NCBI GenBank assembly: GCA_024137785.1
Contig: JAHRHZ010000140.1
Coordinates: forward strand, 30,609,687-30,673,686
Length of the DNA: 64,000 nucleotides
Reading direction: 5' to 3'
Source: Ginglymostoma cirratum
Lineage: Eukaryota
A model generated the notes under the pieces. The model was not told the origin of the DNA, searched no databases, and saw nothing but the letters and a program-made list of their open reading frames with translations. The position numbers and the translations under genes are program-made. This document shows, in pieces, positions 1,287-63,162 of this stretch. Numbering within the stretch: position 1 is the stretch's first letter; each line of letters starts with the position of its first letter.

Positions 1287-1812
1287 TCATACAATCATAG
1301 AATCCCTACAGTGTGGAAGCAAGCCATTTAGTCCATTGAGTCCACACCAACCCTATGAAGACCATCCCAGCCAGACACAAACCCCCACCCTATCCCTGTA
1401 TCCCTGTATTTCCCCTGGATAATCCACCTAGCCTGAACATATCTGGACACTATGGACAATTTAGCATGGCCAAACCACCTAACCTGCACATGTTCGGATG
1501 GATGTTGGAGGTGCTCGTGTTGGGCTACAGTGGACAAAGTCAGAATTCACACAACACCAGGTCAGGTGATGAAGGAGCAGTCCTGCAAAACCTTGTGATT
1601 TCAAATAAACCTGTTGAACTATAACCTGGTGTCATGTGACTTCTGACTTCATCATTGGACTGTGGGGAGAAACCGGGAGCAGTCAGAGGAAACCCACGTA
1701 GACGCGGAGTGAAAGTAGAGACTCCACACAGACAGTGGCAGACAGCAGGAATTGAACTGGGTCCCGGGTGCTGTGAGGCAGCAGTGCTAACCACTGAGCC
1801 ACTGTGCAGCCC
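1287..1812 (-). mobile_element. HE1-type tRNA-derived SINE, full length, with a nested insertion at 1499-1649
   Basis: Reverse complement carries the head ggctcagtggttagcactgctgcctcacagcacc and the ccacactgtagggattctatga tail; the same family recurs eight more times in the window. Confidence 0.92.
1499..1649. mobile_element. Short Penelope-like (PLE-derived) element with inverted arms and a degenerate hammerhead motif
   Basis: Inverted repeat aagtcagaattcacacaacaccaggt / acctggtgtcatgtgacttctgactt (23/26). Internal gtgatgaaggagcagtcctgcaaaa resembles a decayed CUGAUGA-stem-GAAA. Flanked by a degenerate duplication of the SINE target (catgttcgga / catcattgga). Confidence 0.7.
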
Positions 1813-2446
1813 CTGCTGAATACCAGAGCTCCCTGAGATCAGGCAATTGTCTTATCAAAAGCAAAAAGCTCCACTGCATTGATGTGCAGCTGATATTTGA
1901 CCACACCAGCTAAGCACTCCAGGATTGCGCCCACTTTCCAGGCAACTCACACATTCAGATTCTGACATTCTGGAGCATTCACAGCTGGCTGTAGGTTTCA
2001 ATGTCTCGTGTCAGTTACAGAGGACTGACAGCTGGGGGGAAAGGGGGTAGCCACAGAAGACTTGACTGTTGATGCAAGTGAGGAACCCTCAAACTGTAAC
2101 TGAGGTGAGGTTCAATGCTGCACAAACCTCCATACGGGCCATCACTGACAAAATGATAGGATTGCTCAAAACAAACTTCAGATGTTTCAACCACTCAGAC
2201 AGTGCACTCCAATATCCCGAGACCCAGAAAGAGTTTTCCTAATTCATCAAAATCTGTTTCTTAAACTTTTAAAGCATTTTGAAAACTTCCTGGCTGTGAA
2301 TCTGCTGCTGGACAGAATTCATTAGGTTAAGAACATTTTATTTTTCTCTGTTTCATTAAATATAGGGTCATTTTAAAATTTAACTTTAAGTCCTGTGATC
2401 CGTTGGAAGCATCAAACTGCATAGAAAAACGTAGCCTTTGCACTAA

Positions 2447-2588
2447 CCAAAAACTGAAAGGACTGCAGATGCTGGAAATCAGAAACAAAAAAAGAAATTG
2501 TTAGAAAAGAACTCAGCAGGTCTGGCAGCATCTATGGGGAGAAATTAGAGTTAACTTTTCGTCTCCAGTGACCCTTCTTCAGAACTAT
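2447..2588 (-). mobile_element. Short PLE-derived element with hammerhead-like motif
   Basis: Perfect 11-bp TSD ctttgcactaa (2436-2446, 2589-2599). Minus strand reads agttCTGAAGAagggtcactggagacGAAAagttaact. Confidence 0.8.
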
Positions 2589-2689
2589 CTTTGCACTAAT
2601 TGCACTTAGTACTTCCACAACCTCTGATACTTGAAGGGAAGCATTGTTACAGACCTGATCTCAAGTAAACTGAGGCACTCAGCCACACG

Positions 2690-3130
2690 CCTTTGTCGTG
2701 GATGTGACTTGCTGCCTTATTCCTTCACTATCCCTACACTTCTGGTGATCATTCAGTTCCATGACAATATGGTTACTTTAGTTGAGTATCCTCAGTGACT
2801 GTACCTCCACGGTCCCATAGGCAGACAATTCCAAATGCATCCCTCCTATCCCCTCGAGAGAATGAATTCCTCACCTTTCAGTAGTTTATTGTCTACCTCT
2901 GATTTGGAAATACTTCCCAGCTATGGAGCTCTTAGCCAGTGGAAAGATCTCTCCCTACTCTATCTTGCAAAGTCTAGCCACATTTGTTCATTGCTCATAG
3001 CGATCATTTCTTCACTGTCCGCTATGTAGCAAACCCAAGCCCATTCACCTCGCTCTCATCTCGTATGAAAAAGTCAATATCATTGAAATCAATCTATCTG
3101 TCTTGGCTACAATCTCCGAATGATACACAT
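2690..3130 (-). mobile_element. CR1-type LINE 3' region, old and degraded
   Basis: Resembles the reverse complement of a CR1 ORF2 end and 3' UTR (cctccacggtcccataggcagacaattccaaa...gaatgaattcctc). Confidence 0.5.
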
Positions 3131-3513
3131 ACCCTTCTTTTGCTAATGAGGACAACTTATGCACACATGTTACTGAGGATATGAGACAATGAATGGTATC
3201 TTGGAACTCAGCTCTAGATCTGCGTCGGTAATGTGCATGGGAGAGTGGGGTTCAGCAGAATCCCATGGGTAGGAATTTGGCGGAATCTCTACCTTCTCAT
3301 CCCTACAAAGGAAAGTTCCACATTTGCTTTCCAGGGCCTCTTCCTCCTGTATACCGGCTAACAGTGAGAGGGGCTCCATAGTTGGGATCCCACTCCATTG
3401 GTGGTTAACATGCCATCAGGACCTTTTATATGACATTTGATCCTGACTTACATGGAAGTGTGAGACTCATATCAGATTAAGGTAGACACTTTAGCACCAT
3501 GTCCATCTCACTA

Positions 3514-3545
<32 letters not shown>

Positions 3546-3546
3546 A
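3514..3546 (+). repeat. (AC)n microsatellite
   Basis: Directly visible, with one interruption. Confidence 0.95.
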
Positions 3547-3768
3547 TCCCCTCCCCACACACCCCAACTCCCAATGGGGCAGGAAATTGACTCACTCATT
3601 TTAAATTGCGCTTCGCAGTTTCTGTTTGATATGGGATAGATTCATTTGTGGTCCCAGGTTGCACTTAATGCAAATGACAGCACTGGGTGCATGGCTTCTC
3701 AGAGTATTCTGACTGTTATTATTTACAGTAATAATTTACAGGGGTAGATTAGCTCACACCTCCATTTC

Positions 3769-4061
3769 GAATCATAGAATCCCCACAGTGTAGGAAGCGG
3801 CCATTTGGTCCATCAAGTCTGCACTGACCTTCCAAAGAGGATTCTCCTCACCCCCATCCCCATAACACCGCATGGGGTTTGTACCATGGCCAATCCATCT
3901 GACCTGCATATCTTCGGACTGTGAGACGAAACCAGAGCACCTGAGGAAACCCACGCAGACACCGGCAGCATGTGCAAACTCCAGTCGCCCAAAGGTGGAC
4001 TCAAACCTAGGTCCCAGGTGCTGTGAGGCAGCAGTGCTAATCACTGAGTCACCACGCTGCC
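3769..4061 (-). mobile_element. HE1-type SINE
   Basis: gaatcatagaatccccacagtg tail through gcagtgctaatcactgagtcaccacgctgcc head. Confidence 0.9.
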
Positions 4062-4878: not shown

Positions 4879-4923
4879 AATGAGAAAAGACAGAAATTGA
4901 TTGGATTTCACTACGAAAGAAAG
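4879..4923 (+). other. Candidate 45-nt internal exon of an unidentified host transcript
   Basis: ttgtctttcacAG|aatgag...gaaagaaag|GTATGT. One frame is open (NEKRQKLIGFHYERK); no partner exons were identified. Confidence 0.3.
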
Positions 4924-23166: not shown

Positions 23167-24950
23167 TGAATTGTCGATGGTCTCCATTTGTGTGTATAAT
23201 GAAATTTACCACTGCTCCATCCGCTAATAAATCTCAAACTTTACAAATTCAGGCAACCTAGATCTTTCTCTACTCTCCTGGTGAGTGTTCTCTTGTGACT
23301 TGGAAGTTCCCTGGGCCAAAGACCGTTCAGTTTATTCTGTTTCTGGTAATCAGGAGTACGTAGTTACCATTAAACTGGAAGGTTTTTAATCTCTTGGATT
23401 TCTTTCACAGAAGATGTCTGTGCTGGAGAAACAAACAATTTCTTCCTGGTTGTATCTTGAATCATTGGGTATGAGTCATCCCTTCAATGGGTACCTTCTG
23501 TAGTGTTATATGCATAACATCTTGAATGCGTGCCAGCAGACTTATATTTGCAAATCACCCGTAGATTTGTGCTTTTAAATGTTAATTAATTTGGAGTCTC
23601 TTCTCCACCCTCATTGATGGCATTATTGGTGAAACCACCAGGTTCATTTATTTAGTTCTACCATTTAATGGTAGGTTCTATTGCCATCAGCTGTAATCCC
23701 AATTGAGTGCAGAAGTGTTTTTCTTGGTCAGTTTCTGATATAGTATCTGATTTAGAAGCTGCTCTTTATCTCAGAAATTGTTTTTTTCCCCTAGAAATCC
23801 AATCCTGCTTCTATTTGACTCATCTCTGAAATTAAGTCTTCCGGGAAATATTATTTCTGATGCCGTGTCTTCCTAATCTGGCTAAACATTTTTCTTGCTT
23901 AAAAAACCTTTTATTTTACAGGAGCAGTAGTTCTGCTGTTCTTTGCTATTATACTGCAGGGTTTTCTCATCTTTCATAGCTAATGGAAGATTCCTGATTT
24001 TTGTGGATAAAAGAGAGGATTCTTGCACTTCATGGAATTCACTGTGTGAATCCCACTGTTCACGGCTTTAAGAAATTGTTCACCAATTTATCATGGTTTT
24101 ACTGAATGATTCCCATTTCTTGAGATTGAAGGAAATGATTCCTACTATTATAATGGCTCTTAGGAAGGATCTCCTGTCTTTTCCATGGCCTGAATGAAGT
24201 CTCCCAAACTTTCCATCCCTGTTAGAACCAAAGTGCTTAAGCTTTCTATCTGCACAATGTTGTTGCTTTACTTACTGCTTTCATAATGATGTCCCCTAGG
24301 TCTGTAACCTCTTCGATGTGTTTTTATAGCAATGTCTCACAGTACTCACTATGGCGGTGCCTCTCAATGTGAGCTGTAAGTAATGTATTAACTTCTCACT
24401 TTTCCAGCCCAGATGACTACACCTTTTAAATTTCCCCTGGAATTTCAAGCTTTAACTCTGAAGTTGTATGATATCTGTTCACTTACTTCTGACTTGGGCC
24501 CTCTCCCACAGATACTCCCTTCATGAAATAGCAGGTATCTGTTTTGGACTTACTACTGCTCTTTCTCCAAAGAATTGCTAACTCTCCTGCTGCAGTATGT
24601 CTATGCAACATGCAGTTGTGGGAGTTTTTTGAATCCCTCTCAGTTGGAGTATGTCCCAGAGTTGATATGGTCCAAAACAACACTTATGCAGTTAATTCCT
24701 GCCTGCCTCATGGGGAAGTCTGCAGTCTTAGCCTGGTACACCTTTTCATATTGGAAAGAACCTCGATGACATCCCTAGTGCATCCAGAGCTGGCAAATCG
24801 GGAGGTGCAGGTATAACCTTTTCTCATTCAAAGTTCATTGTTGCCTCTACAGACACAGGTAAAATCATCCTCACTGCTGAGGGATTATAGTTGTGGCTGC
24901 AGGTGGTGACAGATTTTGGTGCAGGCATCATTAGACAGGTCATACACATT

Positions 24951-25089
24951 AAATAAAAACCAAAAGAACTGCAGGTGCTGTAAATCAGGAACAAAAACAA
25001 AGTTGCTGGAAAGGCTCAGCAGGTCTGGCAGCATCTGTGAAAAAGAAAACAGGGTTAACGTTTCGGGTCCGGTGACCCTTCCTCAGAAT
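24951..25089 (-). mobile_element. Short PLE-derived element, apparently young
   Basis: Perfect 12-bp TSD gtcatacacatt (24939-24950, 25090-25101); same family as 2447-2588. Confidence 0.88.
25054..25089 (-). ncRNA. Minimal type-I hammerhead ribozyme motif
   Basis: Minus strand auuCUGAGGA-a-GGGUC(accg)GACCC-GAAA-cGUU/aac: intact core, 5-bp stem II and palindromic stem III (ACGU). Helix I is only ~2 bp in this copy. Confidence 0.65.
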
Positions 25090-25571
25090 GTCATACACAT
25101 TGTTCTTCACAGAATTCACATAACAGAATGTTTTTCTGAGCACCCTGGGGGATACATGGCTCCCTGCTGTGTGTTCTTCTCCCCAATTCTTCCTCCTCCC
25201 TCTTCCAGCAACTTGCGCTGCTCTGTATTATCTCCATTCATTCTCCCTGCAATGCCGTAGTCCAAGGGGCATACCTACTGTTGTATAAGGGAAGTGAATT
25301 GAAAGGGTTAATGTTCGAGGCTTCACTCAGCTCTACCCAATCTGATGATGTCATTCAGTTTTGATTGGTGGAAAAGGGGGAGTCTGTGACAGATATGACA
25401 TATTTGACTTCTGATGGCCTTAGTTATTATTTTAACTCAGTAACATATCTTTTACCTATTACTATCATGGAATAAACAATACCTTGTTAATAAAAGTGTC
25501 ACTTCTCGTTGAGGAATAGTAGTGGTTCATCCTCTAACACTGTTAACCAAATAGACCCTTACATTCAATCA

Positions 25572-26494: not shown

Positions 26495-26620
26495 GGATAA
26501 CAAGCATGGGGCTGGATGAACACAGCAGGTCAAGCAGTATCATAGGAGCAGGAAAACTTGACGTTTCGGGCCTAAAAAGCCCGAAATGTCAAGTTTTCCT
26601 GCTCCTATGATACTGCTTGA
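26495..26620. mobile_element. Palindromic PLE-derived element, cut by the assembly gap
   Basis: Same family as 29896-30003; 42-bp inverted arms at 26530-26571 and 26579-26620 (41/42 identical). Confidence 0.85.
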
Positions 26621-27020
26621 NNNNNNNNNNNNNNNNNNNNNNNNNNNNNNNNNNNNNNNNNNNNNNNNNNNNNNNNNNNNNNNNNNNNNNNNNNNNNNNN
26701 NNNNNNNNNNNNNNNNNNNNNNNNNNNNNNNNNNNNNNNNNNNNNNNNNNNNNNNNNNNNNNNNNNNNNNNNNNNNNNNNNNNNNNNNNNNNNNNNNNNN
26801 NNNNNNNNNNNNNNNNNNNNNNNNNNNNNNNNNNNNNNNNNNNNNNNNNNNNNNNNNNNNNNNNNNNNNNNNNNNNNNNNNNNNNNNNNNNNNNNNNNNN
26901 NNNNNNNNNNNNNNNNNNNNNNNNNNNNNNNNNNNNNNNNNNNNNNNNNNNNNNNNNNNNNNNNNNNNNNNNNNNNNNNNNNNNNNNNNNNNNNNNNNNN
27001 NNNNNNNNNNNNNNNNNNNN
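26621..27020. other. Assembly gap (400 N)
   Basis: Run of N. Confidence 1.
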
Positions 27021-27897: not shown

Positions 27898-28640
27898 CAG
27901 TACTATTGCCCTTTCCTCAAATGGGGTGAAGGTCTTAATGTCTGGCAACCCTCCATTGGGATCCTCTTCAAGTTTCTGGGCCAGCTTATCTAATTATGAG
28001 ATAAAGAGACAATTGAGAGTGATGGCAACGGGTGCAGGAACATTTTGTCAGCATGCATTGTCAAGCTTTGAGCCATCTTATGAATAGGAATCACAGTATC
28101 CAAGAACGTACAGTACGCTGAGAGCATGAGGAGATTGTGAGCTTTTGAGTATGCGTCATGCATGTACAGTTGAGACTTTCAGGTTATGACCCCTTGTAAG
28201 ATGCCTGTGCAGTGGCAGGGCTAGACTGAGTGATGCTCCTGTGAGTGTGAGCTGGTAGAAAGAAGGTGGTGCCGCTCACCCTTATGGAGCTCATGAGATT
28301 GTTCATTTTCTTCTGGCTCTGTTGCCAGGTGTCTTGGTGAGGGCCAGTTGCTCTTTACAGCCACCTTGCCTTGCTTCAGGCCATCTGGGTTTGATTGGAG
28401 GGCATCCTGGTGCTATCCATCAAGAATATAACCTCCCTTCCTTCCCTTACTCCATTCAGCAATAACTGTAAGGGAACATTACTAAAGCTTGGGGTGAGCT
28501 TGTTACTTCTTGGGAGGCATCTTCAGTGGGGGGGACCTACATGTTTGAGTGGATGTTCCTTGCTTGCAGTTAGTGAAGTGGAATCCAGTTGGTCTTTAGT
28601 AATAGCAACCAAATCTACACACCTGATGGATACCACCAAG
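27898..28640 (-). pseudogene. Harbinger Myb/SANT-like DNA-binding gene relic, copy 1 (exon 1, intron, part of exon 2)
   Basis: Minus strand: KLTPSFSNVPLQLLLNGVREGREVIFLMDSTRMPSNQTQMA*...TWQQSQKKMNNLMSSIR|gtgag, then an intron, then KLAQKLEEDPNGGLPDIKTFTPFEERAIV. This fits the Myb_DNA-bind_5-type pattern (PRFS..L..L....W..VA...RTWQQCRKK.NDL...TGGG). Confidence 0.75.
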
Positions 28641-29094
28641 TGTTTCAAGTGTGTGCTGGTCACTTGGACTTTGGCTTCCAGTTTAGGCAATTTATTTGTT
28701 TCTTCTCCTCCTATCAAAACATGGTAAATATTGGTAATCTTAGAAACACATGAAGTGCAGGTAGATTGGGGATGTGGTTATGTGAGAGACTCACTTCTGT
28801 AAGTACATAACCTAGAGTATACTGGGAAAGGAAGTCGGGGTGAGATGGTCCTTCACTAAGGTCATTGACCTCCTCTTACTGTTGTCATGGATCTCCTGAA
28901 AAATCAAGGATGGAGTAAATAATGGAGCAGAATAACCATGTCATTCCCCTTGTGCTGTCACAGCTTAGAAAGAAGACCCATTATAAAAGCTTCCTTGGAG
29001 AACAGCAACAGCAGCAGCCACCACTGGCTGCAGAGAAAGGAGGAGCAGAACAACAATTACCACGTAGAAGGAGAGCTCTCATGTGAAACAGGAT

Positions 29095-29205
29095 CTACAG
29101 GCTTCAAACAGAAACAAAAACATTTCTGCAGAAACACATCACATCTGGCAGCATCTGGAGAGAAAAAAATAGTTATGTGACCAGTGACCAGCTGCAGACC
29201 TGTTG
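29095..29205. mobile_element. Degenerate short PLE-derived element
   Basis: aaacagaaacaaaaacatttctgcagaaacac...tctggcagcatctggagagaaaa...gtgacc, similar to 2447-2588 and 24951-25089. Confidence 0.55.
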
Positions 29206-29895
29206 CATTGACGTGCTCATCAGATTGCGTCCCCTTCTTTATTCTTGATAAAGAGATGATTGTCGCTTTGCTGGTGGGTGCTTTGTTAGCAACTAACTAA
29301 GAAGACAGTTGTGCCTTCAATTGTGCCCCACTGATCCACAAACCATCACAAACTGTGTAAATGTATTAAATCCTAACCAGACAACCAAAATGACCAATTT
29401 GCCTGACAGACTGATATTCAGGACAAAACAAAAATTGTACCAGGTTTTGCCAGCTTCAGAAAAATAACTGTTTATTGTAACATACTTAACTGTAACAAGA
29501 GCAATGAAAAGAAAGGATTTCTAGTCTACTACTGCACAACTTAAACTCTATACCTTCAGTAACCTCAAATACATACACACAATTACAATGACAAGAGTCA
29601 AAAGACAAATTGTTTAACATAGGTACCATGGTGTCAAAGAATATTACACATGGTAATCAATGAAAGATCAAAAGTCCAGGCCCTGAAATGGAAAGTTCTC
29701 ACAGTCCTTTTGATGTTAGCAATGATGACCCACTATTGTTTGTAGGGTGATGGGTATTTTGTGATTTGATGGTTGATCAAGTGGGCCGAAGTTTCTCTTG
29801 TTTTAGATGTTTTTGATTTTCCTATCTTTTCCGACAGAAGAGCGAGAGAGAGGGAGAATTGGACGCTGTCGATCTGCAGGTTGTGGAAGTTTCTG

Positions 29896-30003
29896 AGATA
29901 ACAAAGTGTGGGGCTGGATGAACACAGCAGGCCAAGGAGCACCATAGGAGCAGGAAAGCTTGACGTTTCGGGCCTAGACCCTTCATCAGAAACCTTTTAT
30001 CTC
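29896..30003 (-). mobile_element. Short PLE-derived element (108 bp)
   Basis: Perfect 14-bp TSD tgtggaagtttctg (29882-29895, 30004-30017); short inverted ends agataacaaag / cttttatct. Confidence 0.88.
29955..29996 (-). ncRNA. Minimal type-I hammerhead ribozyme motif (best-preserved copy)
   Basis: Minus strand aagguuu-CUGAUGA-a-GGGU(cuag)GCCC-GAAA-cGUC/aagcuuu: intact core, GUC site, 4-bp stem II, 7-bp helix I (two GU pairs) and ACGU palindromic stem III. Confidence 0.75.
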
Positions 30004-30551
30004 TGTGGAAGTTTCTGTTTGCTGCTGCCTTTAGGTTTACAGTTTTTTAACTCTCTGCAGGTCAACCAATCAGAGTGCTGTTGTCAGGCAAAATTTTCTT
30101 AATCTGAAAGAGTCTCAGCATTGCTCCATCTGAAATTATTCCTCTTACTTCTTCAAAAAGCCAACATTTATTGTCCAATTCAGACCTTCAATTTTGAAGT
30201 TGCAAAATTCTCCTGAATCTTTCTGTTATAGCAGTCCAACTTCTATTTCAGTTTATAGTGCTGAGAAAGAAACTAAGTGTTCTCATACAATATAAATGAA
30301 TGCCTTGTTAATTCATCCTCTGAGGTTTCATGAGCTTCCTCCTTGGAGGTCGTGCTGGTGCAGATGGGCTCTGATTTTGGCCTATTGCAGTGTACTGAGT
30401 GATGGATATCACTAATGCCTGCAGAAGAAAAGGGAAGTAATTATTTGATGAAGTTCGGCATTAATCTGTGTCGACCCTCATGCATATCCAAGAAGAGTAG
30501 AATACAATGCTGTTTGCTGGCCTCCTGGGATATTCCTGTTATGACAGAAAT

Positions 30552-30698
30552 AGGATAACAAGGTGTAGAGCTGGATGAACACAGCAGGCCAAGCAGCATC
30601 AGAGGAGCAAGAAGGCTGACGTTTCGGGCCTAGACCCTTCTTCAGACCCTACACCTTGTTATCTCAGATTCTCCAGCATCTGCAGTTCCTACTATCTG
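30552..30698. mobile_element. Short PLE-derived element with inverted arms
   Basis: 11-bp TSD atgacagaaat (30541-30551, 30699-30709); inverted arms gataacaaggtgtag / ctacaccttgttatc. Confidence 0.88.
30613..30650 (-). ncRNA. Minimal type-I hammerhead ribozyme motif
   Basis: Minus strand agggu-CUGAAGA-a-GGGU(cuag)GCCC-GAAA-cGUC/agccu; core intact, helix I has one G-G mismatch. Confidence 0.65.
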
Positions 30699-31974
30699 AT
30701 GACAGAAATGGGCCTTGGTCTTCCCTGGCCAGTTCTATTGCCCTTTCCTCAAATTGTTTGACAGTCTTAATGTCTGGCAACCCTCCACTGAGATCCTGTC
30801 CAAGTTGCTGGGCCAGCTTGTCCTATTATGAGATAAAGAGATGATTGAGTGTGATGGCAACGGGTGCAGGAACATTTTGTCAGCATGCATTGTCAAGCTC
30901 TGAGCCATCCTAGTCAGTGAATAGGAATCACAGTATCCAAGAACGTACAGTACGCTGAGAGCATGAGGAGATTGTGAACATTTGAGTATGTGTCATGCAT
31001 GTATAGTTGAGACTTTCAGGTTATGACCCCTTGCAAGATGCCTGTGCAGTGGCAGGGCTAGACTGAGTGATGCTCCTGTGAGTGTGAGCTAGTAGAGAGA
31101 AGATGGTGCCACTGAACTTTGTGCCACCCAAGAGATTGTTCATTTTCTTCTGGCTCTGTTGCCAGGTGTCTTGGTGAGGGCCAGTTGCTCTTTACAGCCA
31201 CCTTGCCTTGCTTCAGGCCATCTGGGCTTGATTGGAGGGCATCCTGGTGCTATCCATCAAGAATATAACCTCCCTTCCTTCCCTTACTTCATTCAGCAAT
31301 AACCGTAAGGGAGCATTACTAAAGCATGGGGTGAGCTGGTTACTTCTTGGGAGGCATCTTCAGCGGGGGGGACCTACACGTTTGAGTGGAAGTTCCTAGC
31401 TTGCAGTTAGTGAAGTGGAATCCAGTTGGTCTTTAATAATAGCAACCAAATCTACACACCTGAAGGGTACCATCAGGATTCACCAATTCACTTGTACATC
31501 ATCACAATTTCATAGATAATGAGGTGAAAAGCAAGAGCTTCCATGAGATAACTCCCTCCAGGCCTTGGTAAAAGTCACCCTGAATTAACTCCAAAATGGA
31601 AAATCTAAGTGACAAGAGTTTGTTTGCTTTCCTTAAAAGTCCGAGATCTACTCTACTTAAAATGAAAGGTATATTGACAGACATATTCATGCACAGTTGC
31701 AGTGTTTCTTTCCCAGGTACAAATCTTCTACAATCTATTTTGCACAAAATTAGGCTTTGCAAGCCATAGTTTTAATTGGTTTCAATGAGTCATTTGGTAC
31801 TATATTCCTTATGAGGTGAAGGATAGGACGTTAATGCTCCACTTTCTCTTTAAGTGATTGATAATTTCATTATAATCTTAGTGCAGTTCCATTAATTTAT
31901 ATTGTTAAATAACTGCGACCCTAAGTTATATCCTTATCTTGCGGCACTCTACCCAGATAGAGTTCAATGCCGAC

Positions 31975-32137
31975 AGATAAACAGAAATTCATGGAGAAAT
32001 ACAGTTCTGAAGAAGGTTTACTGGACCTGAATTATTGACTCTGCTATCTCTCCACAAATGCTGCCAGAGATGCTGAGTTACTCCAGCAATTTATGTTTTT
32101 GCTTCAGATATCCAGCATGTGCAATTCTTTGTTTTTG
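31975..32137 (+). mobile_element. Degenerate PLE-derived element
   Basis: cagttCTGAAGAaggtttactggacctGAAAtt...ctctccacaaatgctgccagagatgctgag...ccagcatgtgcaattc. Confidence 0.7.
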
Positions 32138-32179
32138 GCTGACTTCAATTCTATTGGGTTCAACCTAAATTAACTGCAA

Positions 32180-37535: not shown

Positions 37536-38364
37536 GCTAAGTTAGATTTCTCATGAAGTAAAGAGGATCCTGCTCAATTGCAGTAGTGTGATGATAGTGT
37601 TCTGTTTGATATGCTCCTGCACCAATATATTAGTGAGAGATTAAAGCAAAATATGAAACCAAGCTTCAGACATTGGTCTAGAATAGAAAAAAAACAGTTT
37701 TAATGAAGAGCTCTCTTCGATGAACAAAATGTCAGTTAACTTTTAGCTCTGCTTCATTACAATGGTGCCTCAACATAATTTTCTGCTCATTTATGTGATT
37801 TGCATCTACTTGTGCTAGTTGGTTGACATTAAATAGAGAATCCCTCTGAGGTGGAACTTTCAGCAGCTGAGCACCATTATTACCACTCAGGAATGTAGTG
37901 TAATTGAAAATAATCAAGGGTGGGGGAGGAATAAATAGACTTGAGAGTAATCGGCGGAAGGGAATGGGAAATAAATATGTGAATCTAGCTGTGGAAAGCA
38001 ATGTTTATGGAGGTGATCGAATCTTTCAGTTGAGTACACCTTTTTAAAATCTGTGCATTTAACAAATAATTCAATCTGTCAATTTATATATGACTGGTGT
38101 TATATATATATTATTCTCTATGTATCTGAAGGAGGTGAGATGAATTTCCTCCATGTTTTTCCTGCTTAGCTCTTGCAATTTTTGATGTATAAATAAAAGT
38201 TGAGGCAACCAACTGTGCATAACTAGTGCTAATTATTCTAAAGATGGATTTGCTTCAGAGCACATGAGGAATTCTTTTGTACAGATGAATAAAAAGGACA
38301 TATATTAGCCATATAAATATAGTTTGCTTATTGTCATTATGTAATTATTCAAAATGTTTTGCTT

Positions 38365-38680
38365 CAGCAGGAAGCAAAGGGTAAAATAAAGGTGGAAGTA
38401 AAATTGGAATTGAAGGAAAAAGACTTGAGGGAAATTGAGGTGCAAAGGAGAAGACGCAGGGCTGAAGGGAAGAGGGAAGGAGAGAGGGGTAGAGATGAAA
38501 ATTGGACGGAGGAGAGGAGAAACAGATTTAGGGGTGGAGGAGGAGAGAAAAGGATAGGGGAAGATGCAAGTGTAAGAAATGGTAGAGTGGGGGCAAGCAA
38601 AGTGAAGAAGAGAATAGGAAAGGGGATGTATAGAGGGAAGGGAATGAGGGGAGAAAGGCGGGAAGGGAAGGAGAGCAGAA
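38365..38680 (+). repeat. Purine-rich (G/A) low-complexity tract
   Basis: Strongly G/A-biased sequence over ~300 bp. Confidence 0.85.
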
Positions 38681-38952
38681 TATATAAATATCATGACTGG
38701 GCTCTGAATGTAGCTAACCGATAAGGACTGGAAACCATACTAGTGCAAACTCATGAAAGTTTGTTAACTATTTACAAGATATGGTGCAGCAGGATTCCAT
38801 TAGAATTATCTTTTCTCAGGTCCCAGTTCCATGTGATATCACCAATGATGCATTCTAGTTATTATTAATACAGCTATTAACCCCTTATGTTGTGGAGAGG
38901 GAAGGAATTGTGTTGGAATAGTTGGTTATGTGTGTAGTCTTTAGTATTACTT

Positions 38953-39797: not shown

Positions 39798-41480
39798 GAT
39801 TGATCCCATTACCAAATATTTTTTGAGACAGTCATGGAGCAAAAAATGTCGATACAAGATCCTCCTCCTCCATTTGGAGTTTACCAGTGCTTCCCAGGGC
39901 CACGTTCTGGCTCTGCAGTTTAGCAGCAAAAGATGGTAGAAAACAGGAACATTAGCTGCAATGCCAAGCTGACCCACTCCCTCGGTCCCTTGACCCTCTC
40001 CAATCCAACCTGCATGTAGCCAATTGGACAGCAGCAGACAGCAATGAGCCTGAAAGATATTGTGAAGGATAAATTGCCTCAATAATTCTCAACCATTCTG
40101 TGAGATAGAGAATACAAGGTAAAACAAGTGACTGAAACTGATTATTTTCAAACATTTACATGTATGAATGCTGTCAAGAATAAACATTGACAAGCGTTGA
40201 TTCTGCCTTTTTCTTCCCTCATAATGGTAAAGTCTAAAACCTGTGAGACATTCACATCTTTTTATTCAATTTACTCATGAAAATTTAACAATTGAATATC
40301 TAGACGTTCACAGATTTTTTTTTGGTGCAGTTGAGAGAGCATGAGAAAAGAGGCACCTGTCAAATGCAATTTTTTTATTAAAGAGTGTTGAACAAAATGG
40401 GCAGAAATGAATTAATAGGCAGCTTGAAAGAGACAGGTTATGTCTACTGTTGAAACTTTTTTCTTAACTACTGTGTCTTTTGCCACTAAGATAACTCTCA
40501 CCAGTTTCTATTAGTGAACAGGCACTTTATTTCAATGCTTTTAAAATGTCTGTTTTGGCATGCATAATCATTAGTTTCAGATTCTCTGTATCCACACACC
40601 ACAATGTTGACAAACAGTATATGCTACAGTGAGCGGTCAACACAAACACTCAAACACATGAATGCAATGGAACAAAGCTCCTACCTCAAGTTTTAATTGA
40701 ATGTAAACAAAGATAGATGAGAATGGTTAGTGTTATAACGATTTTAATGAAGTAAAGCTTTACTAATGTTGTGATTTATTTCACAATTATCCTGCAATCG
40801 CCCCTGTATCATGGTATGTAACCTGATGATATGAATATCTCGAGCTTCATGTTGGCTGGGGCAACTTGAAGCATGACATGCTGCTGAAAGCATGCTTCTA
40901 TTTGTAAACAAATAGCCTAGTTTTAGCCCAGACACTGAAGTGCCTGAAAAAGTAGTAAATGTATATAGCAAACATCTGTTGAATCTATTGGAAGTACCTA
41001 CTTATATTTAAGAACAATCTGGCAGATATTTGAAGAGTTTGGAATATTTGGACATTCCCTGGATCAAGAGGTGTTATACCCTGTGATTACATAGAAATGA
41101 CACCAGGAGTTTAATATGTGCTGTAAGCTACCTACTGTTTTTCTTAAAATCAAGTGACTTAGGAGAAGCTGCAAAGCAAAGTTCGAAAAGGTAAGGAATG
41201 GGTTTCACTGCTTAATTATGGGGAAAACCTAACTTTGAGATGGGGCTCTTATGTTAATAGTTGCCTAGAAATCCACTTTTGTCTTAAAGTGATGTTTTCT
41301 GGCCCAGCAGTGAGAGACTAAAATTGCCATCCAATAAGCTGCAGTCTCTCTACTCAAATTCTGTCTCACTGCAGAAGTTTCTGGGAACTGATAGATTTTA
41401 CCGGGTAGGTAGAAATACTGATATTTGGAAACTAAGTGGAATGTGACCAATTTTCAACAAATTGAATCCAAGCTTATTGG

Positions 41481-41697
41481 CAGACAGAGGAGGCTAGAAG
41501 AACGCAGCAGGCCAGGCAGCATCTGGAGGAAAGGAGCTGTCAACGTTTCGGGTAGTCCCCTTCTTCCAGTCTTGAAGAAGGGTAATACTCGAAACATTGG
41601 CTTCCACATTCTGCCAGATGCTGCCTGGCCTGCTGTGTTCTTCCAGCCTCCTGTTTGTCTACCTTGAATTCCAACATCTGCAGTCTTTTGTCTCTAA
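41481..41697. mobile_element. Palindromic PLE-derived element with two divergent degenerate hammerhead motifs
   Basis: 13-bp TSD ccaagcttattgg / ccaagtttattgg. Long inverted arms (ggaggctagaagaacgcagcaggccaggcagcatctgg / ccagatgctgcctggcctgctgtgttcttccagcctcc). Confidence 0.85.
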
Positions 41698-43672
41698 CCA
41701 AGTTTATTGGAATCAGAACTGGATATTTATCATCAATCTACTGCTGTCAGAAGTTCAGCTTCATTGAAAGAAAATTTATTAGGCATGAGAAGACATTGCA
41801 TTTGATTGTTTTGCTTCTAAAACCTTGGCCTGCTGATTAGTTTTTGCCTCTCCTTTTTAAAAAATTATCGCTGCAAACCCTTGTCGTGTTTTTGCAGTAT
41901 GAATGTTTCTGGCTGTGGCAATAAAGTGACATATTTAATTTTGGATCTAAGCTTATATGTAAATCTAAACTTGCAACTTGTTTTAAGAATAAGTTTTGTT
42001 TAATATAAATAGATTATTTTTGACCTAGTTAAAGGAGTTTGGCAAATGTTTCTTCTATTTTTGATAGTACTGAAGAGCAGCAATTGGCTATTTTGGAAAT
42101 TGAATCAACAAATTTCTAAAAGTGGTGCAACTGGTGGAGTAGTGGTGTTTGATTATCAATGTATTTCTCCTGCCACATTGTAAAAAATCTTTCAGTACCG
42201 TGTTCCCCACATCTATTTCTTAATGACATAAGCATTGCCACATCAAGTACAAACATCCTGCTGGAGGCATAGCTCACACCATGGTGGCAGGCCATGGTCA
42301 GCAACAGTGGCTGTTTATAAAAGAGACTAAGTTCTTATCAGTAGATATTTGGAAATCTCATTCTAGATCACTTCAAAGGATTTGGAAAACTAACAGCACC
42401 AATTTCTGCAAGTACAGATCAACAAATTGAACAGCCAATGACAGCTTTGCTTTCTTTCTGCTTAAAATATATATCCTGTCAGGACTGAACCCATGTTTCT
42501 CTAACTATAAAAAAATCATGAGTCTGCACTCCAGTTTAAATGTTTAAAAATGTCAAAGGCTCTCAAAGCTTAAATGCAGAACTCTCCGAGATGAAATACA
42601 GCTTTTAAAACACACACACAAAGAAGTTAGAACCTAACAAGTCTTATATGTGTGCAGATGCTGTTTGGCCTGCCATCTTGACACTCTAATTCATGCCAAG
42701 GCAGAGGAAGATCCCCCATGACATTATCATTCCTTATTTAGCATGTACCCCATGCTACTGCAGGCCCCTATTTCTTAAAGGAACAGTCTAAAGTGACTAA
42801 ACATAATAAAGGAGCGGTAACAACAAAAATAAACAGAAGCAGAAAAAGGGGGAAAACACGTCAAACATGAGAAACAAGAAAAGAGATGGAAACAAATACA
42901 TAAACCTTGCACTCTACTTCTCAACAAAGTCAAACTCCTTCGATCAGCAATGGAAAGCAAACACTTTAATATGGATTGAGCAGCCAATGATACCTTTACT
43001 GATTTACAGCTATGTAAGCAAGGTATGCAGCTTTAGTGTATAGGTTAAATAGTACATGATCCCAAAAAAATCTCTGAAAATCTTGCTTGCCATCAGCCAG
43101 GAGTGATCTCATGAATTAAGACATCTAAGCTATCTGTGGTTGATCAGAAAGATAAAGAAAAGATCTGGAGGGTGCTTGAGACCAGCTCAAGGTAAGAATT
43201 GATGATATGATTAACAGACTTCAACTCATGTTATATAAACAGAAACCCCCAGAGCCTATTCTTGGTTTCAGAACAAGATGCTGTAGCAAAGGATATGAAT
43301 GTGATTTCTCTGAAGAACTCTCAGATTGGTTCATTGATTTTAAAATGGCCTCTATACTGATTGGAGCCTGAAGAAAGGACCCTCTGAGGAGGAAGAAGGC
43401 TATACTTTTGAAGTATTCTTGACAATAATGCTAATGTGAAGGAATAGTAGAAGGTCAACAACAAATCCATTCTTTAGGTCAGCTAACACCATTGCTACAG
43501 ACAGAAATATGCACCAGGCCACCAAGATTTGAAACGTACAATTTTTCACAACTAAAAGTTGTCCAACATTGCTTCACATCTGCAAAGGACATTGGACATG
43601 CATGCATGCACAGGAAATCTGGTTCCAAAGCCAATCCAGACCCTGGAACAAAACACAGGTGAACGACTACAT

Positions 43673-43964: not shown

Positions 43965-45108
43965 TTACACCATATTTACACCATTCTATATACACCATAA
44001 TTCTTGCCGTGAGGACGGTATTGAGAATATGTATAAACACAAATACATCAACAAAACAAAGGGCAAGGTTTGGAAGATGATCAAGCTTTCACATCATTAA
44101 CCTTCCATATTTCATTGATGGTTTAAAGTTATCAGAAGGTTTTACAACCATTAACATAACTTGTCCTGCAAGGGCAGGTTGATACACACCAAAAGCTAGC
44201 ACTGATGCAGGGCTAGTCACTGTGCATTCTGAAAGACATATACCTTAGCAAGTCAGACTCCATGGTACAAGCTATGAGAGACCACTCCTCAGTACAAAAT
44301 GGATCACCAATTCCATGTGTTGGCAGAATCGCACAGCAGTGCCAATACACACACTCATTTGATTCTTGAAATCTTCTACATGGTAGAGACCAAGGGATCA
44401 TTGACAGGACTACCAGATCATTATGTAGCCCAGTTCATGAGATTTAAATTACACCCACTGTTTTGGAACAGACTATATGTGATGCAATTGAATTGACTGA
44501 AGTTGAAACTGATCTGTTGGACTTTGGCTAGGGCCAGTGTGAACTGTTGCAACTGGCAACAAACTGCTGAAAATGAGCAAATACAAGAGTTAGAACAAAC
44601 TGTAATCCAGGGATGGCCTGATTAGTATTAAATAAGTTCCAGAGAACATTAGTTCATCTTGCCATACAGAGGTGAAATTGGTAATTGATAGCAGGTTATT
44701 TTTAGAAGCAAACAAGTCCAAACACCAAAGCATTATGTCTGGATCTCATGACCAGGTTATACCAAGTGCATATGAGCATTAAACATACAAGAAGGCTAGT
44801 ATCTGCGTAATGGCTAGGAATCCGAATATTCAAAGTCTTGTGAGTGCATGTGAGGCATGCCAATTTACAAAGCCCTCACAGAGGAAGAAGCCTCTAATTC
44901 CATATTATGTCATGCCGACTCCTTGGACAAAAATGGCAACAGACTTATTCACTGTGCACGGGGAAGGTTACAATCTTGTTATAGAGTACTTATCCAAATT
45001 TCCCATTGTCACAAACACAATGTGTACAACGATCATTGACACCATGACTGCTATTTTCAGTTTATTTGTTGTTCCAGAATGGAAACTGTGTGATAATAGG
45101 CTGCAGTA

Positions 45109-45320
45109 ACAAAAACAAAAATTACTGGAAAAACTCAGGAGGTCTAGCAGCACCTATACAGAGAAAGCAAAGTTAGTGTTTTGAGTCCTTTGAAGAAGGG
45201 TCATCAGTTAACTCTGTTTTCTCTCCATAGATACCGATAGACCTGCTGAATTTTTTCCAGCAATTTCTATTTATGGTTCTGATTTCCAGCATCTGCAGTT
45301 CTTTGGGTTTTTTTGTTTGT
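45109..45320. mobile_element. Palindromic PLE-derived element inserted in the Gypsy integrase
   Basis: Degenerate 15-bp TSD taataggctgcagta / taacagactgtagta; inverted arms ctggaaaaactcaggaggtct / agacctgctgaattttttccag; internal tgaagaagggtca. Confidence 0.8.
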
Positions 45321-47335: not shown

Positions 47336-47344
47336 TTTAAGTTT

Positions 47345-54294: not shown

Positions 54295-54415
54295 TCCATC
54301 TCTCTTCAGTCCCGAAGAAGAGCCATTTTTAGACATGAAACATTAACTCTTGTTTCTTGCTCCACAGATGATGCTCGACCTGCTACATTTCTCCAGCATT
54401 CTCTGTTTCTATTCC
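54295..54415 (+). mobile_element. Degenerate PLE-derived element
   Basis: cagtcccgaagaagagcca...gaaacattaactc...ctccacagatgatgctcgacctgct...ctccagcattc. Confidence 0.65.
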
Positions 54416-56223
54416 ATTCTCAGAAGGTCATCCTTCCCTTTGGCCACTCTGGTTCTCCCACATTCAACGTCTAGTGAGATGAGGAATGTGGAGGTATCCT
54501 GTTAAATGGCTACCTCCTGTAAGATCACTTTGGAAGTGTATTGCTGACACAGTTAGGGTGGAAACCTGAACATGGTCCCGATATGTGAAAATCTTTCCAG
54601 TGGAGAAAAGTCTAGCCATGGAAATCACATTTTGAACACCACCGATCAGGTTTAATGGAATAAATGGTATCTGAATCATATAACTGTGTTGTTGAGTGAG
54701 CAGCCAAGTTTGGCCTGGTGTTCATGGAAAGTTTACTGAGTAGCCGCAATATTCAAGTGTTTAAATTAATAATGAACTTAGTAATATTATTATTCAAGTA
54801 AATTTGTATGGAAATGAAACTGAGTGAAGCCAAGACACAAATTCTGAGCTGGTGAAAATATGATTGCGTATAATTTAAGTAGTCACCTCTTCAGGTTTTC
54901 AATCATTAATTAGTGTCTTCTCCTCGATGCCATAAATGCCAACATAATTAAAAGCATTCAGTAGTGAAATTCCTGACTTTAAAAAGACAGAAAATGACCA
55001 ATACTTCCAATTTGGTGCCAAACTTGTATTAACATTTTGGAGAATCCATATAAATTACTGTGCATAATTTCAATGCAGACAGTGAAGACACTTCCAACTC
55101 TGTTTAAAATATTGTAGACTTGAACAGCTGAGATACAGAATTTACAGTGCTCTTTCCTGGATTTCCCTATCAATGGCTACTGTAGCCACCGAACTGAAAC
55201 TGATAATGATAATATTACTGCATCTTGCAGTATGTAAAGCAGATTAGTGATTTTTAAATACACACCATTATTTTGTCAACTATTTTAAGTACATATCCCT
55301 TTCTTAATGATATAAGCTATAAAACTATGTGTTGCCAACTCAAATAGAGGAACTTATGCAAACAATTTTTCACATTGAAGATTGTGGGTAATCCTGGCAC
55401 TTGATTCTATAATATTTGTATGCCCATTATTTTTACAGATCTACCGGTTTTGCAATAAATCTTTGATCTTACACTTGAATATCATGAAATTATTTGCATT
55501 TAAATTGTAAAGGAAACTATGAAATCTTTCATTAGTTGAAGTGAAAAGATGTGTGTAAGAAGACAAAATGAAGCAATTTCATTGATAAACAGAAATTAAT
55601 TATCAACAAGTCAGCTACTGTCTGAAATTTAGTTGATAATTGCATGGAAATTAGCATTATTATCTATGAGGTACGTTCTAAAAATTAACATAAATAGACC
55701 AAGTTAACAACGTGAGTAATATTTGTCAATCTTGAAGAACCTAATTTTAGCATAGCCCATAATGTGAAATTGTGAAATTGTGAAATTCATTTTAGAATAA
55801 TTGCCAATATAGGAAAAGAGGACTTTTCTGGATTTCAAAAGGAGGAAACACAAATACAACCAAAAATAATCTGAAACATTGTTCAGTTTCTTATCCAATA
55901 ATCTGAGTTAAAAGAATCAGCATGCTAAGTGCTATATCAGCTGGAGCCAAAAATAGGAGCCAAGTGGTAGGATAGAATGACTATAAATGCTTTCATCAAA
56001 TCATTGAAAGATTTGACATTGTTACAGAAAATACATCATAGATTTTCAGGCTAATCATTCGCAAGAATATCTCGATAGATGAATGTAAAAGAATGTGGCA
56101 TAAATTGTCTTTTTGATGTGCAGGTTAGTGATTTAATGAACTAACTCGGACAATATTTTGTGCAATATATTGAATACATAGAATAAGTGAACTTTGTTCA
56201 GATAAATTTTCATATAAAAAATG

Positions 56224-60567: not shown

Positions 60568-60763
60568 AGAATCGTAGAATCCCTAGAGTGTGGAAACAGG
60601 CCAATCGGCCCAATATGTCACACTGCCTCTCTGAAGAGCATCCTACCCAGACCCAGCTCCCTACCCTTTTTCTGTAACCCTTCATTTCCCATCGCTAATC
60701 CAACCAATTTACACATCCCGGATACTATTAGTATGGATACTATTAGGCAATTTAGCATGGCCA
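60568..60763 (-). mobile_element. HE1-type SINE 3' half
   Basis: agaatcgtagaatccctagagtgtggaaacagg...caatttagcatggcc; internal duplication of ggatactattag. Confidence 0.88.
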
Positions 60764-61527
60764 CTGATCTCCTATGATGCCAGATGTGAACTTAATCTGA
60801 GAAGGATAAAAACTGTATAATCTTCACCATTTTGAAGAGTTCCTGCTTATATAGATATTATTTTCAATTCCTTTAATCTGTAATATTGTGCTACAAGCCT
60901 TGAAATACGGACATGATTAGATACTAAGTACTATGATATCAAGTCCAGATTGAATTACTTTCTTAAATGACTTGGTGGTTTAGGGGTAATAATTTGCTCT
61001 TCTAGACAACCACAGTCTTGCATTGGTCATTTACCATAGCAACCATTTCTGCAGAGATTGAAGAAATATGTGAGCACATGTCCTATACTGGGGAATTGAG
61101 GTTAAGCAGACCAATTGAAGAATTTCCTGCTGCAGTGAACAGCATTGTTACTCTTCAATTAGAGCTTCACAATACATAAGAAACACATTCCTTTCCTGAA
61201 GAAAATAGGCATATTTTCAGTTTAAAAAAATATATATGTATCCAGCTTCACCTCAGGCTGAAGGAACTGCAGTACAAATCATTATGTTGGCCTGTCTCGT
61301 TGGAATAAACTCAATCATAAAGATCTGATCAGTTGAGTGTGAAGGGATGGTCAAGAGCCAGCATGTACTAAATCCAACAGGTACGATCAAATCAACATTT
61401 AAATTGAGCAAACAATTTATTGCCATATCAAGGAAAAGTGGTTATGGGAATTCTAGAAAATGCCCATTTTAACCTTAAATAATTGTTTTCAGATTTTTTA
61501 ATGTAACCAATCTGTTATGGTTTGGCA

Positions 61528-61801
61528 TCTGTAGGTAAGGTATAGAGTTAAATAGGTGTTATAGTTATTAACTGCAATGTTTGATACTACCTCAATAATA
61601 CTGTATGCTTTAGCATTATTAAAAATCTTCCAATACGCAATTTGTCAAATGCATTTTGAAAATGCCCTAACATTCATTGCACTTACTTAAGTATATATCG
61701 GAAGATTTTTAATAATACTAAAGCATATAGTATTATTGGGGTAGTATCGAGCATCACAGTTAATGACTATAATGGTTATTTAACTCTGTCTTACCAACAG
61801 A
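61528..61801. repeat. Long imperfect inverted repeat (~105-bp arms, ~60-bp spacer)
   Basis: The left arm 61528-61635 aligns to the reverse complement of 61696-61801 with ~15 substitutions and one 2-nt indel. Confidence 0.92.
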
Positions 61802-63009
61802 CTTTGCATTCGCTGCATTTACTTAATTGCACATAGGTTCAGAGAAGTGTATTTATGAGTGAAAACATGAAAAGTCTGTCAGTATGTTTAATTAGAAAGA
61901 CTAGACAGTGATAAAGAAACAACAGAAAAATGGAAAGGGTATTGATAGATTAGTTCCTTGGTATTTCTTTGGAATTTCCTGGACTTTCTCCAAAACAGAG
62001 AACCGATGATTAGCTATGCTAATAAGGTGAACAGGAATTGTTCTGACCATGTCCAATCATTGTACCTGCATAGGTCCAAAAATGCAATCATTTTGAGGGA
62101 CATCTGATAAAGTGTGCTTTTCTCTATGCTTTTGCTTAATACTGCTACTGGCATAGTTGGATACTTCCACCTAGCATTTCTGAGCTTTGCAAACACTATT
62201 ACAAAGGCTGGCTCCTTATCCTAGTGTAAGGTTCTTTCACTCTTTCAGTCCCGTAACACTCATTATTTACATTTATATATTGAACGTTGTTGAAACACCT
62301 TTTTAAGGTAGAGTCCAAAATCTTCATTTATATGCTTCCTTTTAGTCTGGTGCTCGCTTCTCTTCTTTCAGCCTGCTCTTCTGGTCTCAGAGTAAGATCA
62401 TCAGTTACATCATCATCATTTGTATATTCCATTATGCTATATCTTCATCCATGTTTCTCTTTTACTCATTTTACATAATTCCAATAATTTGCCTTTAATA
62501 ACTTACATAGTTGATTTTAGAATTAACATCATTATTAGCATCTACCTCACTCTGAAATTCTGAATCAAACAAGTTGAGATGATCTGGACTTCTGATTGGA
62601 CACCTTGATTTGATTTGCTTTATTTCCATATGAGGGTGACATTTCTCTGCCATTCCTGGAATTGTGTCCCTTTGGTGTGGTATTCAATGCAGAATGGATG
62701 CGTCTTTCCTAGTTCTATGATAATTGTGCTTGGTCTCACTTCTTGGCTTCACTAAGATCAAGGCTTTCCTATGTCTCCTGAATATTCCTTCTGGTATTTG
62801 AACTATATAAGAGCTAGGTTGATTTGTCCTCCATAGATGTTTTACATCTATTTTTACTGTGCCGTACCAAACTTATTCCTGCCTGTCAGCTTCAGTGCAT
62901 TGAAAGTACTTGGAGCATCTGAGGAATTTATATTTGTAGGATAAAGTGAAGAGAGTGGGGATAATTCCATGAATATTATACTATTTCAAGTAGCAGGTGT
63001 TGGCGATCT

Positions 63010-63162
63010 GAGACAAACACAGAAAGAGCTGGAGAAACTCAGCAGGTCTGGCAGCAGCTGTGAAGAGAAACGCAGAGTTAAGGGTCACTGGATTTGAAAT
63101 GTTAACACTGTTTCTCTCAGCACAGCACAGATGCTGTGTTTTGTCAGCACTTTCTGTTTCGT
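63010..63162. mobile_element. Palindromic PLE-derived element, degenerate
   Basis: gctggagaaactcagcaggtctggcagc...gagttaagggtcactggatttgaaatgttaac...tttctctc...cacagatgctg. Confidence 0.75.

What the first reader, a model, noticed from the sequence alone, without database searches (positions are those of the whole stretch)
1499..63162. Dense family of miniature hammerhead-ribozyme-bearing Penelope-like elements (~12 copies in 64 kb, at least three subfamilies)
Seen: 100-220 bp inserts at 1499, 2447, 24951, 26495, 29095, 29896, 30552, 31975, 41481, 45109, 54295 and 63010. Six have 11-15 bp TSDs, several have inverted arms, and many contain CTGANGA-a-stem-GAAAcgt. Stem II stays paired while its loop and sequence change between subfamilies (GGGUC-accg-GACCC, GGGU-cuag-GCCC, GGGU-aau-ACUC, GGG-gacua-CCC), which is what structural selection would look like. 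Established: Penelope-like retroelements carry minimal type-I hammerheads with a palindromic stem III that cleave as dimers, and they often produce inverted pLTR structures. Inference: these are truncated or non-autonomous PLE ends, possibly a SINE/retrozyme-like system mobilised in trans. They are about as frequent here as HE1 SINEs and are probably poorly annotated as ribozymes in sharks.
Basis: partly seen in the sequence, partly recalled or inferred. Interest (0 to 1): 0.75.

Follow-up and report, generated by a model that had tools for sequence, protein, structure and literature searches.

The report
Penelope retroelement stubs with minimal hammerheads
These are many short, mostly decayed end-pieces of a known kind of jumping gene (Penelope-like retroelements) that carry its small hammerhead ribozyme motif; ordinary in kind, except that most pieces begin right at the ribozyme's front edge, which hints at a defined RNA or cDNA end there.

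Summary
All 12 inserts are real. Eleven form one family (about 50-90% identical); 1499 is unrelated. Six of 11 tested have significant 11-15 bp TSDs. Only 3 of 12 keep a full minimal type-I hammerhead (shuffle mean 0.007); most others are mutated or cut. The claimed stem II covariation fails: 0 of 5 pairs change on both sides, and two of the four quoted stems are the two arms of one insertion. No RT/GIY-YIG ORF could be linked (no genome held). They are not tandem retrozymes, Pol III SINEs or MITEs. Best reading: dead-on-arrival PLE pLTR/tail copies. One odd point: 10 of 15 arms start within -6 to +2 nt of hammerhead C3, not at the cut site; one public DNA run shows the same edge with diverse flanks. 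This scan noted the same on other DNA (three earlier findings). Known kind, new host example.

The parts
1499..1650 (.). Fold-back insert of a separate family (D) inside a tRNA-head SINE. Minus arm 1499-1562 carries a tail about 35 nt longer; plus arm from about 1562 has a decayed hammerhead-like core. TSD not significant.
2447..2588 (-). Subfamily A single arm, hammerhead to long (tail) end. Core box intact, stems II and III broken. Starts 6 nt before C3. Exact 11-bp TSD 2436-2446 / 2589-2599.
24951..25089 (-). Subfamily A single arm with a complete minimal hammerhead at 25057-25086 (5-bp stem II, palindromic stem III, stem I cut to 2 bp), long end. Exact 12-bp TSD 24939-24950 / 25090-25101.
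26495..26620 (.). Subfamily B head-to-head fold-back; both arms begin in stem/loop II. Plus arm runs into the 400-N gap 26621-27020.
29090..29203 (-). Old, degenerate subfamily A-like arm; hammerhead no longer recognisable; no significant TSD.
29896..30003 (-). Subfamily B arm with the best-preserved minimal hammerhead (29962-29989; 4-bp stem II; 7-bp stem I partly from a 12-nt micro-inverted arm), short end. Exact 14-bp TSD 29882-29895 / 30004-30017.
30552..30698 (.). Subfamily B fold-back. Minus arm 30554-30646 has an intact core (30618-30645) and the short end; plus arm 30647-30698 ends in a tail of about 35 nt. Exact 11-bp TSD 30541-30551 / 30699-30709.
31975..32138 (.). Subfamily A: 29-nt inverted short-end arm, then a plus arm from the hammerhead edge (decayed GAAA) to the long end; marginal TSD.
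41481..41697 (.). Subfamily C head-to-head fold-back, both arms starting at the hammerhead edge. Minus arm short end, plus arm long end; both cores broken; arms 78% identical. 13-bp TSD with 1 mismatch 41468-41480 / 41698-41710.
45109..45318 (.). Subfamily A fold-back: minus arm short end, plus arm long end with a deletion through the hammerhead; 15-bp degenerate TSD (12/15).
54295..54420 (+). Divergent arm with decayed hammerhead and short end, preceded by a micro-inverted piece; TSD not significant.
62986..63160 (.). Subfamily A fold-back: minus arm has the long end and starts within 2 nt of the predicted cut site; plus arm has the short end and starts at stem II; TSD not significant.

Best explanation
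These are dead-on-arrival insertions made by the RT/GIY-YIG protein of endonuclease-positive Penelope-like elements. The protein nicks a target with an 11-15 nt stagger (stagger shown by the TSDs; the enzyme is inferred). It primes reverse transcription at one of two sites about 86-107 or 126-136 nt downstream of hammerhead C3 (two ends shown; their identity with RT start sites inferred from the anole PAc work). Synthesis stops after about 90-140 nt, usually just past the hammerhead's 5' edge (shown). Often a second cDNA from the other start site joins head-to-head, giving a fold-back with a tail on one arm (structure shown, route inferred). The copies then decay neutrally (shown). The hammerhead is a passenger from the parent pLTR, where it would need a dimer or the PLE protein to cleave (from the literature). 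Most likely cause of the sharp 5' edge (inferred, about 50%): the template RNA ends there (transcription start or splice junction), so RT primed at the 5'-proximal tail site runs off the end, like a strong-stop product.
For: Two 3' end classes, one on each arm in 6 of 6 scoreable fold-backs (1499, 30552, 31975, 41481, 45109, 63010). PMC8557442 describes an adjacent inverted 5'-truncated copy and a 30-40 bp tail as PLE features. PMC11167929 ties the tail to two internal RT start sites, one 111-118 nt into an ORF that begins at hammerhead stem II. The three intact motifs have the four traits listed for metazoan PLE minimal hammerheads in PMC4209133: family consensus, extra base after A9, G10.1-C11.1, palindromic 15.2-16.2. 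TSDs vary from 11 to 15 bp. Arms of one insertion are only 72-78% identical, and CpG-type changes hit catalytic G12 in 45109 and 1499 (read). In run X1, 78,146 contigs laid on the 30552 copy, with depth confined to about 30554-30697; loose ends pile at the 5' edge 30646 (899 contigs, flank agreement 0.37) and at the long end 30697 (1148, 0.42).
Against: No link to a PLE ORF was found. No Pfam family reached its cut-off in 148 of the window's frames; a protein search with the open frame of 24951 gave 0 of 10 candidates; the hammerhead pattern gave 0 matches in three mostly prokaryotic or viral collections. Random 5' truncation of a long RNA would give a spread of lengths with some copies running upstream of the hammerhead; 0 of 15 arms do, which fits a short dedicated template as well. 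The loose-end counts come from assembled contigs, which collapse a shared upstream sequence and multiply unique flanks, so they can neither show nor exclude full-length parents.
Confidence: 0.65

Rival explanations
1. The source is a short non-autonomous pLTR-only master, hammerhead edge to tail (about 130-140 nt), transcribed as its own unit and mobilised in trans by a PLE protein. That would be a SINE-like or solo-retrozyme-monomer family, and the inserts would be full-length copies, not truncations.
For: 10 of 15 arms start between -6 and +2 of C3 and none extends upstream; the same edge with diverse flanks in 899 contigs of run X1; density of 12 in 64 kb. pLTR sequence alone can drive integration in trans (PMC3846280). 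Dispersed retrozyme monomers related to pLTRs are reported, including hammerhead repeats in one chondrichthyan (10.64898/2026.07.22.740005).
Against: No head-to-tail arrays in the window; no Pol III boxes in 6 of 6 copies scanned, while SINE controls gave an A box in 2 of 2. The anole PLE protein needs RNA running to ORF position 172, beyond the 111-118 start site (PMC11167929), so inserts that end at the start sites may lack part of the binding site and could not re-mobilise (inference).
Confidence: 0.25
2. Fold-back or MITE-type DNA transposons whose inverted arms are TIRs; the hammerhead is a coincidence or a captured piece.
For: Seven loci have inverted arms and fold into long hairpins (one search folded six of them, -35 to -129 kcal/mol).
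Against: Arms are unequal by about 30-40 nt and join at variable points; single-arm copies carry their own TSDs (2447, 24951); TSD length varies from 11 to 15 bp.
Confidence: 0.03
3. The hammerheads in these copies are kept by selection for a host function, such as cleaving intronic or read-through RNA.
For: Three copies keep a full core; two of them (29896, 30552) lie on the same strand 656 nt apart and could pair as a dimer in one transcript. Among contigs of run X1 the commonest non-CpG changes inside the motif fall on tolerated positions: N7 27%, U-G to U-A in stem II 15%.
Against: 9 of 12 loci have lost the motif. Two of the three intact ones belong to the least diverged subfamily (86-89% identity), which explains their state by youth. 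Tolerated variants shared by many copies reflect selection in the parents, not at the loci.
Confidence: 0.04

Closest known systems
5'-truncated and inverted pLTR insertions of canonical EN+ Penelope-like elements (Penelope/Poseidon or Neptune clades; PMC8557442, PMC3846280, PMC11167929)
   Same: Inverted adjacent truncated copy, 30-40 nt tail on one end, TSD of variable length, hammerhead about 90-135 nt upstream of the two 3' ends.
   Different: No ORF seen here, so the clade is unassigned; copies are uniformly tiny; 5' ends cluster at the hammerhead's stem I edge instead of spreading; TSDs 11-15 bp against the 8-10 bp examples in the rotifer paper.
Minimal type-I hammerheads of metazoan PLEs (PMC4209133)
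   Same: Core boxes, extra base after A9, G10.1-C11.1, palindromic two-base stem III, short stem I, dispersed singles and opposite-strand pairs, several sequence families per genome.
   Different: Host not named in the parts of that paper I read (fish, coelacanth, Xenopus, turtle and snakes are); stem II here is 4-5 bp; 9 of 12 copies are broken.
Metazoan non-LTR retrozymes (PMC7229834; 10.64898/2026.07.22.740005)
   Same: Short, non-coding, type-I hammerhead, related to PLE pLTRs; dispersed monomers exist.
   Different: Defined by head-to-tail tandem units and circular RNA; here copies are single or head-to-head, carry TSDs and the PLE tail, and no tandem was seen.

Membership tests
EN+ Penelope-like element | Linked ORF with PLE-type RT and GIY-YIG endonuclease | tested here: inconclusive
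   None in the window; protein search negative and weak; no genome held; collections hold no relatives.
EN+ Penelope-like element | 30-40 nt tail at one end (two 3' ends) | tested here: met
   6 of 6 scoreable fold-backs have one short and one long end; the opposite-strand joint 30554-30664 shows short end and tail are colinear in other copies.
EN+ Penelope-like element | Adjacent inverted 5'-truncated copy | tested here: met
   7 of 12 loci.
EN+ Penelope-like element | Minimal type-I hammerhead with palindromic stem III in the pLTR | tested here: met
   3 of 12 loci complete, against 2 hits in 300 shuffles; remnants alignable in most others.
EN+ Penelope-like element | Target-site duplication of variable length | tested here: met
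   11, 12, 14, 11, 13 and 15 bp at 6 of 11 loci tested.
EN+ Penelope-like element | Partial tandem pLTR-ORF-pLTR arrangement | not testable with these tools
   Needs full-length copies; no genome held.
Hammerhead ribozyme (functional) | Self-cleavage as dimer or with protein help | not testable with these tools
   Folding only: the hammerhead-competent monomer fold is 0.6-4.5 kcal/mol less stable than the minimum-energy fold; the intermolecular stem III is worth about -3 kcal/mol.
Hammerhead ribozyme (functional) | Compensatory changes in stem II | tested here: not met
   0 of 5 pairs change on both sides; score reached by 104 of 500 shuffles (alignment A1, 16 arms, many with gaps here).
Non-LTR retrozyme | Two or more head-to-tail units each with a hammerhead | tested here: not met
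   No adjacent same-strand arms among the window hits; no tail-to-head joint among the 15 best-supported joints shown (106 more were not shown).
Non-LTR retrozyme | Monomeric linear and circular RNA | not testable with these tools
   Only contig-level runs guessed as RNA were available; contigs show no ends, strand or circles.
Pol III SINE | Internal A and B boxes in a tRNA-like head | tested here: not met
   0 of 6 copies on either strand; SINE controls gave an A box in 2 of 2 and a B-like box in 1 of 2.
MITE / DNA transposon | Terminal inverted repeats with fixed TSD length | tested here: not met
   Unequal arms, single-arm copies with TSDs, TSD 11-15 bp.

The most novel reading that the evidence does not exclude
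The inserts are not random truncations but copies of a discrete 130-140 nt RNA or cDNA unit whose 5' end is set at the hammerhead's stem I edge. It would be either a strong-stop-like product of PLE RT primed at the 5'-proximal tail site, or a pLTR-only non-autonomous element, and it has reached SINE-like density in this lineage across several subfamilies. The boundary would place the PLE hammerhead at the very start of the template RNA and make its open role in transposition testable.
Probability: 0.35. Interest if true: 0.55.

Novelty: new member of a known kind. Interest (0 to 1): 0.3.

Why it matters
As it stands it adds a host lineage and a density figure (12 copies in 64 kb, on par with the local tRNA SINE) to a known pattern, and shows that Rfam misses the motif (0 hits). 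The part worth following is the 5' edge. The role of the PLE hammerhead is open: in the one reconstituted system cleavage was not needed for insertion and no RNA ends were seen at the cut site (PMC11167929). Very many short copies that keep the whole uncut ribozyme and stop at its front edge are a natural record of where the template or cDNA ends.

Tried and rejected
Rfam scan of the whole window at E<=1: 0 hits. No whole genome held, so no genome-wide count or ORF linkage. Hammerhead-plus-downstream pattern: 0 matches in metagenome, viral and prokaryote-genome contigs. A 21-base stretch gave 1 metagenome match, L001, whose flanks share nothing with the element, so it is chance. Protein search with the 44-codon open frame of 24951 against longer proteins: 0 of 10 candidates. 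Reading frames downstream of the hammerhead are not kept between subfamilies A/C and B, so I do not claim these stubs code. Pfam on 148 stop-free frames (most of the 158 frames of 68 aa or more, SINE-derived and low-complexity ones left out, plus 16 shorter ones at 27-31.5 kb): 8 weak hits, none at cut-off. Sequencing runs: no RNA holder listed. Two runs guessed as RNA laid 9,532 and 2,272 contigs with the same edges, but RNA is a guess and DNA may be in them, so this says nothing on expression; raw-read run X23 laid 0 reads, no test. My first descriptor missed 24951 through a greedy pattern and was fixed; my first TSD scan was unanchored and was replaced. Covariation: rejected. Lunse et al. 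on dimer cleavage was not held; I know it only through passages of PMC6765202. Passages of PMC9004415 and PMC7561263 had nothing on this. Supplementary Fig. S2 of PMC11167929, which plots genomic copy coverage on the template and may show the same 5' edge, held no readable text; supplements of the bioRxiv preprint were not seen and may list chondrichthyan families.
Full report
Observation. All 12 listed inserts are present. BLAST within the window joins 11 of them into one family and leaves 1499 apart; a profile of the arms finds no further locus at E<0.1. Identities group them as subfamily A (2447, 24951, 31975, 45109, 63010, with the more distant 54295 and 29095; about 58-80%), B (26495, 29896, 30552; 86-89%) and C (41481). 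A tRNA-head SINE occupies 9 loci. An anchored TSD test passes at 6 of 11 loci, lengths 11, 12, 14, 11, 13 and 15 bp; it is marginal at 31975 and fails at 4; 26495 is cut by a 400-N gap.

Hammerhead. A minimal type-I descriptor (core boxes, stem II of 4 bp or more, palindromic stem III, UH) hits 3 places, at 24951, 29896 and 30552, all on the minus strand; 300 dinucleotide shuffles gave 2 hits in all. The motif has the extra base after A9, the G10.1-C11.1 pair and the palindromic 15.2-16.2 that PMC4209133 lists for PLE minimal hammerheads (parts 1-2 of 4 read). Rfam does not detect it. The other 9 loci have lost the core by mutation or truncation. The covariation argument does not hold. On alignment A1 no stem II pair changes on both sides (0 of 5), and the score is reached by 104 of 500 shuffles. 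If the arms were alike at insertion, that is plain decay (inference).

Anatomy that points to PLEs. The aligned arms end in two classes, about 86-107 nt and 126-136 nt from C3; 29095 is intermediate. In all 6 fold-back copies with both ends visible, one arm has the short end and the other the long end, about 30-40 nt further. PMC8557442 (passages) and PMC3846280 (passages) describe this inverted truncated copy plus a 30-40 bp tail as PLE features. PMC11167929 (parts 1-2 of 4 and passages) shows that the anole PLE protein starts reverse transcription at two internal sites that bound the tail, one 111-118 nt into an ORF that begins at hammerhead stem II. The spacing here is of the same order. 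Laying four public runs on the 30552 copy at 80% likeness, DNA run X1 gave 78,146 contigs with depth confined to about 30554-30697. Loose ends pile at 30646 (899, flank agreement 0.37), 30697 (1148, 0.42) and 30554 (1415, 0.42); only the six best-supported places per run are shown, 494 more are not. This is one subfamily in one run of an organism that held 0.26 of the stretch's words, so perhaps a relative, and contig counts are not copy numbers.

What could not be shown. No RT or GIY-YIG remnant lies in the window, no genome is held, the collections hold no relatives, and a protein search was empty. PLE membership therefore rests on four structural features met and one, the ORF, inconclusive. 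Retrozyme membership fails on tandem units, Pol III SINE on promoter boxes, MITE on fixed TSD and equal arms.

The 5' edge. Of 15 arms of the main family that reach the hammerhead, 10 begin between -6 and +2 of C3, 4 begin in stem or loop II (+6 to +13), and 1 (63010 minus arm) begins at +28, within 2 nt of the predicted cut. The reference arms start at -3 or -6 themselves, so that alignment cannot see further upstream; but TSDs (2447, 24951) and fold-back junctions (29896, 30552, 31975, 41481) fix the edge independently. Copies therefore hold the uncut ribozyme and were not made from its 3' cleavage product, in line with PMC11167929, where uncut RNA is the main template. A polymerase blocked by a fold should stop at its 3' side, not its 5' side, so a template end is the likelier cause (inference). 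In Drosophila Penelope the transcript starts 46 nt before a 75-nt intron (PMC2377424, passages) whose end maps to the 5' end of helix I (PMC4209133), so a start or splice junction at this spot has a precedent. My model: RT primed at the tail site near the 5' end of the PLE transcript runs off the end after about 90-140 nt. A short non-autonomous master would give the same picture, and these data do not separate the two.

What is known. Solo and opposite-strand minimal hammerheads from truncated PLEs, in the thousands per genome, are in print for fish, coelacanth, Xenopus and reptiles. Penelope-like elements are reported as expanded in whale shark introns (10.1101/443036, passages). Hammerhead repeats were found in one chondrichthyan and tied to pLTRs, with cleavage in 1 of 9 Xenopus dimers tested (10.64898/2026.07.22.740005, parts 1-3 of 5). 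Other papers seen as passages: PMC6155905, PMC6765202, PMC7229834, PMC8969392. Nine searches of the open library turned up no description of these shark-type stubs or of a 5' edge at stem I; subscription journals and Repbase/Dfam entries were not searchable, and two sets of supplements were not seen. Three earlier notes of this scan report the same elements in other genomes, two of them the same 5' edge; I tested the edge here myself, and they are not independent support.

Verdict. A real, dense set of PLE end-pieces with a passenger hammerhead, mostly dead; a new member of a known kind. Interest 0.3, carried by the 5' edge; 0.55 if that edge proves to be a discrete RNA or cDNA end.

Noticed in passing
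window 27898-28638 and 30730-31475: Local direct duplication of about 741 bp, 92.5% identical, 2.8 kb apart. By eye part of it translates like a decayed Myb/SANT-type (Harbinger-like) ORF, but Pfam gave no hit at cut-off.
   Followed up: partly
window 44783-45106 (+): 108-codon frame that by eye resembles a decayed LTR-retrotransposon integrase start; no Pfam hit. The 45109 insert sits at its end.
   Followed up: partly
window 26621-27020: 400-N assembly gap that begins inside the plus arm of the 26495 fold-back; the hairpin may have broken the assembly.
   Followed up: no
window 1294-1811: One tRNA-head SINE copy is split by the 1499 insert, so that insert is younger than the SINE copy.
   Followed up: partly
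window 29962-29989 and 30618-30645 (-): Two intact hammerhead cores on the same strand 656 nt apart: the only pair here that could form a dimeric hammerhead within one read-through transcript.
   Followed up: no
window 30620-30626: Among laid contigs each of two CpGs in the motif shows a change of 5% or more on only one of its two bases (11.1 and 16.2 at 11%; G12 and 15.2 not listed). Unexplained; window copies show changes at both bases.
   Followed up: partly
window 38305-38739: Purine/pyrimidine-biased low-complexity stretch giving three long open frames.
   Followed up: no
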